From positions 1 through 34,951 of IMG/VR virus record IMGVR_UViG_2740892423_000023: a stretch of DNA of 34,951 bases. One strand, written 5' to 3'. Below, one piece after another: positions 11,969 to 13,015 of this stretch (its first letter is position 1; every line of letters starts with the position of its first letter). The notes beneath the pieces are model-generated. The model made no database searches and had not been told where the DNA came from. It was given only the letters and a program-made list of their open reading frames with translations. The stretch is from a virus (Duplodnaviria > Heunggongvirae > Uroviricota > Caudoviricetes). The position numbers and the translations under genes are program-made.

Positions 11969-12530
11969 GCTGTTGCTCTCTTAATTCATCCAGACCACAG
12001 ATATCTGCGCCGTATTGCGTACCAATTCGCAGTAAATCCGGGTCAGGGTCTGACAGCCTGCCGTGGTAGCGGTTGAAGAGGCGGTCCGCTTCTGCGCCAC
12101 GCTCCGGCCATTTGCCGTTCTCCAGCGCGTGCTCCACCCAGCGGGTATCGAACTCACAGGCAAACACGGACATTGCCCGTTCTGCCACGCCGGTGTTAAA
12201 CAGCGTCCTGACCCGCCCGGGTTCGAAATAATCAATCTCCAGCCCCAAATCCTGACCGGTCAGCAGGCGACGGACGGATTCAACCAGCTGGTTTGTCCCG
12301 ACTTCATCCCGGACAGAGCCTCCCTGTCTGGCGCTCTGTTCGCTGCGGGTGTTGTAATCACCCACCACAACCACAAAGCGTCCGGTGGCAATGTATTTCC
12401 GGCGTGACGTGGAATAGCGTTCGGTTTTCACGATGCCGCCGAACGTCACCCAGGCTGCCGGAAGGCTGCGAACAATCCGGCCCGGGTCTTCATCCAGTTC
12501 ACCGGCATAGGTGCGGACATCCTGCACCAT
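11949..12530 (-). CDS. Mu gp37-like protein (DUF1834-like); true start may be a non-AUG codon at 12584-12587
   Basis: 193-aa ORF from ATG 12530; in-frame upstream extension ITEIERALVERLRCGLGH is open and preceded by strong GGGGAGGTG. Confidence 0.65.
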   Translation of the reverse strand: MVQDVRTYAGELDEDPGRIVRSLPAAWVTFGGIVKTERYSTSRRKYIATGRFVVVVGDYNTRSEQSARQGGSVRDEVGTNQLVESVRRLLTGQDLGLEIDYFEPGRVRTLFNTGVAERAMSVFACEFDTRWVEHALENGKWPERGAEADRLFNRYHGRLSDPDPDLLRIGTQYGADICGLDELREQQHEQNEG

Positions 12531-12583
12531 ATGCCCCAGGCCACAGCGCAGACGCTCAACCAGCGCCCGTTCAATTTCAGTAA

Positions 12584-13015
12584 TCAGAATGCACCTCCCC
12601 GCGTGGACTCACGCCCGAACTGACGGGAGCCGGAGCGGATACGCACCTGTGACGATGACTGGATCACGCTGCCGGACGTATCCCGCCCGAGGTTGATTTG
12701 TCCTGCCGCGACTTTCTCCAGAAAGCGGATGGCGTCCCGGTAGCGCATCTGAATTTCTTCTGAGCAGATACGGTAATCGGTCGCCAGGTGATAACGGGCG
12801 ATATCGCAGCAATAACCCACCAGAATCCCCGGGCTGTCAGGCCACGGGGTCCGGTAACGCCCCACCAGATAGCCATCAATCTGGGCACTGGCGCGCGCAA
12901 GCGCGGAGGCCAGCTTTTCTTCGTCGATGAATCCCGTCATGTCTTCATCCGTCAGTGTGCGCGCCTCGCGTTCACTGAACGCCCTGATGAACTGTTCCGG
13001 TGTGGCGTAAGACAT
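12584..13015 (-). CDS. Mu gp36-like protein (DUF1320-like)
   Basis: 143-aa ORF MSYATPEQFIRAFSEREARTL, characteristic N-terminus. Confidence 0.7.
   Translation of the reverse strand: MSYATPEQFIRAFSEREARTLTDEDMTGFIDEEKLASALARASAQIDGYLVGRYRTPWPDSPGILVGYCCDIARYHLATDYRICSEEIQMRYRDAIRFLEKVAAGQINLGRDTSGSVIQSSSQVRIRSGSRQFGRESTRGGAF

What the first reader, a model, noticed from the sequence alone, without database searches (positions are those of the whole stretch)
12530..12600. gp37-like gene probably initiates at a non-AUG codon
The first ATG (12530) has only a weak GGGG upstream. The reading frame is open 57 nt further upstream and encodes a protein-like ITEIERALVERLRCGLGH, and a strong SD (GGGGAGGTG, 12592-12600) sits 4-8 nt before in-frame CTG (12587) and ATT (12584) codons that overlap the gp36 stop. 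This suggests coupled initiation at a rare start codon, which standard gene callers would miss.
Basis: partly seen in the sequence, partly recalled or inferred. Interest (0 to 1): 0.35.

Follow-up and report, generated by a model that had tools for sequence, protein, structure and literature searches.

The report
Tail terminator gene starts at CTG
The tail-terminator gene (gp37-like) of this Mu-like E. coli prophage almost certainly starts 19 codons upstream of its first ATG, at a CTG overlapping the stop codon of the preceding gene; this is a real but ordinary annotation point that RefSeq already records in about half of the matching genomes.

Summary
On the minus strand the gp37-like frame is open upstream of ATG 12530. 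It contains no ATG, GTG or TTG there. A strong Shine-Dalgarno (GGGGAGGT, 12600-12593) lies 5 nt before an in-frame CTG (12587-12585) that overlaps the gp36 stop as CTGA.

The 19-codon extension is clearly coding. Pfam and PHROG profiles, about 30 homologues and Mu gp37 itself all begin at this position. An AlphaFold model makes residues 2-20 the first helix of a tail-terminator fold. Variation within the clade falls at third codon positions.

The CTG is the positional homologue of a TTG (TTGA overlap) in Citrobacter, Yersinia, Xenorhabdus and Morganella relatives, and of ATG in more distant ones. A single T>C change, silent in gp36, is fixed in every relative with at least 88% identity.

The likely mechanism is weak near-cognate initiation, helped by the SD and by coupling to gp36 termination. 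It would make a protein needed at six copies per virion.

This is not new. Of 47 RefSeq E. coli genomes with the identical junction, 27 annotate the CTG start and 20 the ATG. No experiment confirms the N-terminus. Interest is low.

The parts
12584..13015 (-). gp36-like head-tail adaptor gene (143 aa). Its stop TGA is at 12586-12584, and its last codons (CGG GGA GGT GCA TTC TGA) carry the SD for the next gene.
   Evidence: PF07030 Phage_Mu_Gp36, E=4.5e-33. PHROG 195 head-tail adaptor. Mu gp36 is the dodecameric adaptor (PMC11915804).
12593..12600 (-). Shine-Dalgarno sequence GGGGAGGU, inside the 3' end of gp36 and 5 nt upstream of the CTG.
   Evidence: Duplex with the 16S 3' end is -12.3 kcal/mol, the strongest of the late-gene sites tested. 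The GGAGG core is kept at the same spacing in most TTG-using relatives; one aligned relative reads GGCGG.
12585..12587 (-). Inferred start codon CTG of the gp37-like gene, overlapping the gp36 stop as CTGA.
   Evidence: It is the positional homologue of TTG in 26 relatives and of ATG in more distant ones. RefSeq annotates it as the start. Pfam profile position 1 falls here.
12531..12584 (-). N-terminal extension, codons 2-19 (ITEIERALVERLRCGLGH). This is predicted helix 1 of the terminator fold.
   Evidence: Conserved across the family. AlphaFold helix at residues 2-20 with pLDDT 93-94. Within the CTG clade, 6 of 7 variable sites are at codon position 3, P=0.007.
12528..12530 (-). First in-frame ATG. 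It encodes an internal, mostly conserved Met20, not the start.
   Evidence: Met is nearly invariant in close homologues, but Leu in 10 and T/N/K/P in 5 of the more distant relatives. The SD is weak (-4.7 kcal/mol) with a 2-3 nt spacer.
11949..12587 (-). Full gp37-like tail terminator CDS (212 aa plus stop).
   Evidence: PF08873, E=4e-48, profile positions 2-148 of 149. An identical 212-aa protein, P0001, is in NCBI. The best fold matches are the phage Mu terminator entries 9khy and 9lj8.
11726..11968 (-). Downstream gp38-like DUF2635 gene. It overlaps the 3' end of gp37 by 20 nt and is followed by the sheath gene (10312-11733).
   Evidence: PF10948. PHROG 208 aligns from residue 1. The gene order matches Mu gp36-gp37-gp38-L.

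Best explanation
The gene encodes the tail terminator of an apparently intact Mu-like transposable prophage of E. coli. This protein forms the hexameric cap of the tail tube and sheath, which docks onto the gp36 adaptor.

Its coding sequence begins at the gp36/gp37 junction, most probably at CUG 12587-12585, and gives a 212-aa protein (M)ITEIERALVERLRCGLGHMVQD... ATG 12530 is internal Met20. The ancestral start in the enterobacterial relatives was UUG in the same UUGA overlap. One T>C transition, silent in gp36 (TTT>TTC Phe), turned it into CUG, and that state is fixed in the E. coli-associated clade.

Inferred mechanism: ribosomes finishing gp36 at UGA 12586-12584, and/or 30S subunits recruited by the strong SD 5 nt upstream, initiate with fMet-tRNA on the near-cognate CUG one nucleotide back. 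The output would be low but sufficient, because the terminator is needed at 6 copies per virion against 12 for gp36 and about 180 for the sheath.

Shown here:
- The extension is coding and conserved.
- The CTG is the positional homologue of the start codon in relatives.
- The extension has remained under purifying selection since the change.

Inferred, not shown:
- That CUG rather than the adjacent AUU is the codon actually read.
- That initiation depends on gp36 translation.
For: 1. There is no ATG, GTG or TTG in frame between the upstream stop (12611-12609) and ATG 12530.
2. PF08873 aligns from profile position 2 at Ile 12584, and PHROG 490 from residue 1.
3. Thirty and 36 aligned homologues share the N-terminus MITxIExAxxxRLRxGLGxM. 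E6, R12, L13, G16 and G18 of the extension are invariant.
4. Phage Mu gp37 starts at an ATG overlapping the gp36 stop (TGATG) and aligns residue 1 to residue 1.
5. Among 54 genome loci plus viral contigs, relatives carry TTG at the same position or one codon upstream, or ATG at or within a few codons of it.
6. Among loci carrying the searched junction motif, all 26 with at least 88% aa identity have CTG and all 26 more distant ones have TTG. Forty-seven E. coli genomes have the exact CTG 30-mer and none the TTG version.
7. Within the CTG clade the extension has 7 variable sites, 6 of them at codon position 3 (binomial P=0.007). Four codons change only synonymously. Two change the amino acid, both at positions that also vary across the family. 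The rest of the gene shows the same pattern, 31 of 41 sites (P=4e-8).
8. In the AlphaFold model, residues 2-20 form helix 1 at pLDDT 93-94. The top PDB fold hits are the Mu terminator entries 9khy (E=4e-8) and 9lj8, followed by the pyocin R2 collar, T5 p142 and lambda gpU. Starting at Met20 would delete this helix.
9. The SD duplex is -12.3 kcal/mol with a 5-nt spacer to CTG, against -4.7 and 2-3 nt for ATG 12530.
10. The prophage looks intact: transposase A and B, portal, F, protease, capsid, sheath, tape measure and baseplate J are all full length. It sits at different chromosomal sites in different strains: inside eutC in E2348/69, next to rarD in two chicken isolates, and beside another phage tail module in UMNF18. 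This suggests recent spread as a phage.
11. Stoichiometry of a gp37 hexamer and a gp36 dodecamer comes from PMC11915804.
Against: - There is no direct evidence for the N-terminus: no proteomics and no ribosome profiling.
- CUG supports only about 1-2% of AUG-level initiation in E. coli reporters, below the 10-100% group that includes UUG (bioRxiv 10.1101/063800). The change should therefore lower output unless coupling compensates.
- AUU 12584 is an equally weak near-cognate at an acceptable 8-nt spacing and cannot be excluded.
- GGAGGTG is common inside genes of this window, 12 copies against 4 expected, and here it also encodes Gly-Gly of gp36. Its presence is not independent proof of a ribosome-binding site.
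- No significant or conserved RNA structure was found that would enforce strict coupling.
- The selection test rests on only 7 variable sites in 6 haplotypes.
Confidence: 0.8

Rival explanations
1. Translation starts at the junction, but on AUU 12584-12582 (overlap UGAUU) rather than CUG, or on a mixture of the two. The product would be one residue shorter, (M)TEIERAL...
For: AUU and CUG fall in the same 1-2%-of-AUG class. The only two experimentally confirmed non-canonical starts in E. coli, infC and pcnB, are AUU. The spacer from the SD is 8 nt, which is still workable.
Against: This codon encodes the conserved Ile2 in all relatives that start at TTG or ATG one codon earlier. CTG is the direct mutational descendant of the TTG start and has the better 5-nt spacing.
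Confidence: 0.1
2. After the TTG>CTG mutation the upstream start was lost. The E. coli clade makes only a truncated terminator from ATG 12530, or no functional terminator at all. The extension is then a recent relic in a decaying prophage.
For: ATG 12530 is the only canonical start codon. Twenty of 47 RefSeq annotations use it. CUG is a poor initiator. Met20 is conserved in close relatives.
Against: - The extension is the highest-confidence helix of the fold and is present in every homologue.
- Within the CTG clade it still evolves mainly at third codon positions, with no stops or indels.
- The clade has diverged to 88% aa identity while keeping CTG.
- The prophage gene set is intact and sits at several different insertion sites.
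- ATG 12530 has a weak, badly spaced SD.
- Fifteen more distant relatives have no Met at that position.
Confidence: 0.07
3. The extension is expressed as the C-terminal continuation of gp36 through a programmed -1 frameshift near the end of gp36. This would produce a gp36-gp37 fusion rather than an independently initiated protein.
For: The gp37 frame is the -1 frame of gp36 and is open for 7 codons upstream of the CTG. Sequence-read G run CGGGGAGG in that stretch.
Against: - Reading the sequence, there is no X_XXY_YYZ slippery heptamer in the gp36 frame between 12608 and 12587.
- The length of the open -1 frame upstream varies from 0 to 328 codons among relatives.
- Mu and many relatives have an ordinary ATG start at this spot.
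- In the Mu virion, gp36 and gp37 are separate 12-mer and 6-mer rings.
Confidence: 0.02

Closest known systems
Phage Mu gp37 (Mup37), tail terminator; Pfam PF08873 Phage_Mu_Gp37 / DUF1834; PDB 9khy, 9lj8
   Same: Same Pfam family. Same position between gp36 and gp38/sheath. Same predicted fold. The same N-terminal helix begins at the first residue. The start overlaps the gp36 stop in both.
   Different: BLASTP identity to Mu gp37 is only 25% over 116 aligned residues (15-16% in the fold alignment). Mu uses ATG in a TGATG (1-nt) overlap, whereas this gene uses CTG in a CTGA (4-nt) overlap. The window protein is 212 aa against 182 aa in Mu, with a longer C-terminal tail.
TTG-initiated gp37 genes of Mu-like prophages in Citrobacter, Yersinia, Trabulsiella, Xenorhabdus, Morganella and Edwardsiella
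   Same: Identical junction architecture: GGAGG(T/C)GCNTT-TTG-AT(H)-AC, with the start codon overlapping the gp36 TGA. Protein identity is 50-86%.
   Different: One base: TTG, a canonical alternative start, against CTG, a near-cognate. The difference is silent in gp36.
E. coli infC and pcnB (AUU start codons), and near-cognate initiation in general
   Same: A functional gene whose only usable start is a near-cognate codon that gives a few percent of AUG-level initiation.
   Different: infC and pcnB are experimentally confirmed, and in infC the rare codon serves IF3 autoregulation (my own knowledge). Here the codon is CUG, nothing is experimentally shown, and no regulatory role is evident.
Translational coupling by termination-reinitiation at ATGA/TGATG overlaps (Huber et al. 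2019, PMC6728339; review PMC12548453)
   Same: A 4-nt stop/start overlap, with an SD inside the upstream gene, between genes for subunits of one complex. In 4 of 5 E. coli pairs tested, removing the SD reduced reinitiation.
   Different: The overlap motif is CTGA rather than ATGA. Coupling was not tested here, and no occluding RNA structure was found.

Membership tests
Pfam PF08873 Phage_Mu_Gp37 (DUF1834), tail terminator of Mu-like myophages | Sequence matches the family HMM above the curated gathering score over its full length | tested here: met
   163.7 bits against a cutoff of 25, E=4e-48, profile positions 2-148 of 149, starting at the Ile after the CTG.
Pfam PF08873 Phage_Mu_Gp37 (DUF1834), tail terminator of Mu-like myophages | Gene lies between the gp36 adaptor (PF07030) and gp38 (DUF2635) plus the sheath gene in a Mu-like late operon | tested here: met
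   PF07030 lies upstream, with PF10948 and then the sheath domains PF04984/PF17482 downstream. The order is the same as in Mu, NC_000929.
Pfam PF08873 Phage_Mu_Gp37 (DUF1834), tail terminator of Mu-like myophages | Tail-terminator fold: N-terminal helix plus beta-sheet core, with a C-terminal extension that contacts the sheath | tested here: met
   AlphaFold model with mean pLDDT 76.5 and pTM 0.68. The top Foldseek hits are the Mu terminator 9khy (E=4e-8, TM 0.50/0.60) and 9lj8, then the pyocin collar, T5 p142 and lambda gpU. The C-terminal 20 residues are low-confidence.
Pfam PF08873 Phage_Mu_Gp37 (DUF1834), tail terminator of Mu-like myophages | Forms a hexameric ring that caps the tube and sheath and binds the adaptor | not testable with these tools
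   Known for Mu from cryo-EM (PMC11915804) and inferred here by homology only.
Genes initiated at a non-canonical (near-cognate) start codon | No ATG, GTG or TTG in frame between the upstream stop and the conserved N-terminus of the protein family | tested here: met
   The frame from 12608 to 12531 has only ATT, CTG, ATT, ATT and CTG as near-cognates.
Genes initiated at a non-canonical (near-cognate) start codon | The sequence upstream of the first canonical start is conserved as protein and under purifying selection | tested here: met
   Alignments. Six of 7 variable sites are at codon position 3 within the CTG clade, P=0.007.
Genes initiated at a non-canonical (near-cognate) start codon | The rare codon occupies the position of a canonical start codon in orthologues | tested here: met
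   TTG at the identical position in 26 relatives and ATG in more distant ones.
Genes initiated at a non-canonical (near-cognate) start codon | Experimental N-terminus (fMet/Met decoded at the rare codon) | not testable with these tools
   Needs N-terminal proteomics or initiation-site ribosome profiling.
Translationally coupled overlapping gene pair (termination-reinitiation) | Stop of the upstream gene overlaps the start of the downstream gene by 1 or 4 nt, and the overlap is conserved in relatives | tested here: met
   CTGA here. Relatives have TTGA or TGATG, and Mu has TGATG.
Translationally coupled overlapping gene pair (termination-reinitiation) | Translation of the downstream gene depends on translation of the upstream gene | not testable with these tools
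   Needs reporter constructs with a premature stop in gp36. An in-silico search for an occluding RNA structure was negative: z=-1.16 and consensus energy -1.9 kcal/mol.

The most novel reading that the evidence does not exclude
The TTG>CTG change is not merely tolerated. Either post-termination ribosomes reinitiating at a 4-nt overlap discriminate start codons far less than free 30S subunits do, so that CUG works about as well as UUG at this junction. Or the change was selected in the E. coli clade to lower terminator output relative to the adaptor. In either case this clade would be a natural, easily engineered test of start-codon stringency during translational reinitiation, which the recent review lists as an open question (PMC12548453).
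Probability: 0.15. Interest if true: 0.45.

Novelty: already known. Interest (0 to 1): 0.2.

Why it matters
The practical value is for annotation. Twenty of 47 RefSeq E. coli genomes, and any ATG/GTG/TTG-only gene caller, give a terminator that lacks its first helix. That affects structure prediction, protein clustering and proteomics databases. Two assemblies of the same strain (E2348/69) disagree on this gene.

The biological value is small. It is a clean example of a start codon drifting from UUG to CUG at a coupled junction in a phage lineage that still looks active. It could serve as a test case for how strictly reinitiating ribosomes select start codons. No new mechanism or gene family is involved.

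Tried and rejected
- RNA structure enclosing the SD and start, which would force coupling. The MFE is -25.1 kcal/mol with z=-1.16, and 26 of 200 shuffles fold as well. The consensus fold of relatives is -1.9 kcal/mol with essentially no covariation, and that alignment was ragged because locus offsets differed. No evidence was found.
- Sequence search of the PDB with the family profile. There was no meaningful hit. The relationship to the Mu terminator only appeared by fold search and by pairwise BLASTP to Mu gp37, E=3e-4.
- NCBIfam gave no model hit for either the long or the short protein. It therefore did not explain why the NCBI pipeline names and starts the gene in two different ways.
- DNA search of isolated phages gave only a 17%-coverage hit to a Klebsiella phage. 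No cultured phage of the CTG clade is in that collection.
- A -1 frameshift fusion with gp36 was rejected: no slippery heptamer on reading the sequence, and a variable upstream frame in relatives.
- ATT 12590 as the start was rejected: it lies only 2 nt after the SD-paired stretch and is not conserved (CTT or GTT in relatives).
- The SD motif as independent evidence was down-weighted, because GGAGGTG occurs 12 times in the window, mostly inside genes.

Full report
**1. What is in the sequence**

The feature lies on the minus strand. The gp36-like gene (12584-13015, PF07030) ends ...CGG GGA GGT GCA TTC TGA, with its stop at 12586-12584.

The gp37-like frame is the -1 frame of gp36. It is open from 12608, after a TGA at 12611-12609, and reads VHAGRCI L ITEIERALVERLRCGLGH M VQD... 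The first ATG is at 12530. No ATG, GTG or TTG lies in frame upstream of it.

The in-frame near-cognate codons are ATT 12590, CTG 12587 and ATT 12584. GGGGAGGTG occupies 12600-12592. The only correction is that the frame is open 78 nt upstream of the ATG; 57 nt is the distance from the CTG to the ATG.

**2. Is it more than chance?**

Not from sequence alone. A 26-codon open stretch is unremarkable. GGAGGTG occurs 12 times in the window against 4 expected, mostly inside genes.

The ribosome-binding context does favour the junction:

| Site | SD/anti-SD duplex | Spacer to start codon |
|---|---|---|
| CTG 12587 | -12.3 kcal/mol | 5 nt |
| ATT 12584 | -12.3 kcal/mol (same SD) | 8 nt |
| ATG 12530 | -4.7 kcal/mol | 2-3 nt |
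| Six other late-gene starts | -4.6 to -8.7 kcal/mol | not compared |

**3. The extension is coding**

- Pfam PF08873 (Phage_Mu_Gp37) matches with E=4e-48, from profile position 2 at the Ile encoded by 12584-12582. Profile position 1 therefore falls on the CTG. PHROG 490 matches from residue 1.
- A database search with the 212-aa translation found an identical NCBI protein (723 member sequences) and 183 homologues, most of which cover the query from its first residues.
- In alignments of 30 and 36 homologues the N-terminus reads MITxIExAxxxRLRxGLGxM. E6, R12, L13, G16 and G18 are invariant.
- Phage Mu gp37 starts at an ATG that overlaps the gp36 stop (TGATG). Its first residues, MLEETEAALLARVRELFG, align residue 1 to residue 1 with the extended protein.
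- The Met encoded by ATG 12530 is a conserved internal residue in close relatives. It is Leu in 10 and T/N/K/P in 5 of the more distant relatives, so it cannot be the family's start.
- A few database entries do begin at that Met, for example P0008 and P0022. The Trabulsiella DNA behind P0022 has the full extension preceded by TTG, so those entries are truncated calls.

**4. Which codon?**

I fetched 54 loci from reference genomes, 44 viral-contig stretches, and the contigs encoding four close homologues.

The nearest non-E. coli relatives are Citrobacter braakii and C. freundii, Yersinia enterocolitica, Trabulsiella, Buttiauxella, Xenorhabdus, Photorhabdus, Morganella and Edwardsiella. At the junction they have GGAGG(T/C)GCNTT-TTG-ATH-ACN. 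TTG sits exactly where the window has CTG, in a TTGA overlap with the gp36 stop.

Other clades have TTG or ATG one codon upstream, or ATG at the same position, nearly always overlapping or abutting the gp36 stop.

Among loci carrying the searched junction motif, all 26 with at least 88% protein identity to the window have CTG. All 26 more distant relatives with the same motif have TTG. In complete E. coli genomes, 47 carry the exact 30-mer with CTG and none carries the TTG version.

The change is a single T>C transition. In gp36 it is synonymous (TTT>TTC, Phe), so it bears only on gp37 initiation. ATT 12584 encodes the conserved Ile2 of the family, and ATT 12590 is too close to the SD and is not conserved. 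CTG 12587 is therefore the best candidate, although AUU 12584 cannot be excluded without protein data.

**5. Has the extension stayed functional since the change?**

- Within the CTG clade, the 18 codons after the start show 7 variable sites, 6 of them at third codon positions (binomial P=0.007).
- Four codons change only synonymously. Two change the amino acid (E/D at residue 4, H/K/E at residue 19), both at positions that vary across the family.
- There are no stops or indels. The rest of the gene behaves the same way, with 31 of 41 variable sites at position 3.
- The window encodes a complete-looking Mu-like prophage. Transposase A and B, portal, F, protease/scaffold, major head, sheath, tape measure and baseplate J are all full length.
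- Near-identical prophages sit at different chromosomal sites: inside eutC in E2348/69, next to rarD-yigI-pldA in two chicken isolates, and beside another phage tail module in UMNF18. This is what a transposable phage that has recently spread would look like.

**6. What the protein is, and why the N-terminus matters**

An AlphaFold model built from 36 sequences has mean pLDDT 76.5 and pTM 0.68. It places residues 2-20 in a single alpha-helix at pLDDT 93-94, the most confident part of the model.

The best PDB fold matches are the phage Mu terminator entries 9khy (E=4e-8) and 9lj8, followed by the pyocin R2 collar, T5 p142 and lambda gpU.

The Mu cryo-EM paper identifies gp37 as the hexameric tail terminator, gp36 as the dodecameric adaptor it docks to, and 30 hexameric sheath rings (PMC11915804). 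Starting at Met20 would remove helix 1 of the terminator.

**7. Mechanism (inferred)**

In E. coli reporters, AUG, GUG and UUG give 10-100% of AUG-level initiation, while CUG, AUU, AUC and AUA give 1-2% (bioRxiv 10.1101/063800). The T>C change should therefore lower de novo initiation.

Two features could offset this. One is the very strong, well-spaced SD. The other is the 4-nt stop/start overlap, the arrangement for which termination-reinitiation coupling has been shown in E. coli, with the SD contributing in 4 of 5 pairs tested (PMC6728339). A protein needed at only six copies per virion can tolerate a weak start.

How reinitiating ribosomes choose start codons is still listed as an open question (PMC12548453). 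I found no significant or conserved RNA structure that would make coupling obligatory.

**8. Relation to what is known**

The protein is a clear member of PF08873 / Mu gp37 tail terminators by sequence, synteny and fold. The start-site situation belongs to two known kinds: near-cognate start codons and overlapping coupled gene pairs.

It is also already in public annotation. The NCBI pipeline annotates a 212-aa 'DUF1834 family protein' starting at this CTG in 27 of 47 RefSeq E. coli genomes with the identical junction. In the other 20 it annotates a 193-aa 'phage protein Gp37' from the ATG (verified at base level). Two assemblies of strain E2348/69 disagree with each other.

**9. Verdict**

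- Novelty is low because the start is already annotated, though inconsistently and without experimental support.
- What this analysis adds is the origin of the codon (TTG>CTG, fixed in the E. coli clade, silent in gp36). It also adds evidence that the extension is still under selection and forms the first helix of the terminator.
- Interest is 0.2.

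Noticed in passing
window 11726-11968 (-): The gp38-like DUF2635 ORF has an ATG at 11968 that overlaps the 3' end of gp37 by 20 nt, giving 80 aa. PHROG 208 aligns from residue 1 of this long form. RefSeq annotates shorter versions of 66-69 aa that start after the gp37 stop, while other gene calls use long, overlapping forms of 74-86 aa. This is probably a second start-site inconsistency in the same operon.
   Followed up: partly
NC_000929 Mup37 (L108 3455-4003); PHROG 490: RefSeq phage Mu, RefSeq SuMu and Mannheimia phage records, and PHROG 490 all label gp37 'portal protein'. Cryo-EM shows it is the tail terminator, and the real portal here is the 533-aa PF06074 protein at 17696-19297. 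The functional label has been propagated in error.
   Followed up: yes
RefSeq NC_011601.1 vs NZ_CP059840.2 (both E. coli E2348/69): Two assemblies of the same strain, with the identical junction 30-mer, are annotated differently: a CTG start (DUF1834 family protein) in one and an ATG start in the other.
   Followed up: partly
whole window, both strands: GGAGGTG occurs 12 times against 4.0 expected, and no shuffle out of 100 reached 12. Ten copies are on the coding (minus) strand and, judged against the ORF list, mostly inside genes rather than before starts. This may reflect Gly-Gly codon usage or internal SD-like sites.
   Followed up: no
L111 (NC_011601.1 2749000-2755500); L109, L110, L112: The prophage end lies inside eutC in E2348/69, where eutC is annotated as truncated. 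It lies next to rarD in two Korean chicken isolates and beside another phage tail module in UMNF18. The tail-fibre end carries oppositely oriented tail-fibre-assembly genes, which resembles a Mu G-segment-like invertible region.
   Followed up: partly
window 19291-20949 (-): This 552-aa ORF with a TTG start sits just upstream of the portal gene, where the large terminase is expected. It has no Pfam hit at E<=1e-5.
   Followed up: no
L070 (IMGVR_UViG_2852055501_000002) around 3144-3162: One TTG-clade viral contig has frame-disrupting changes just after the gp37 start; the translation breaks after 27 aa. This is either a decayed copy or a sequencing error.
   Followed up: no
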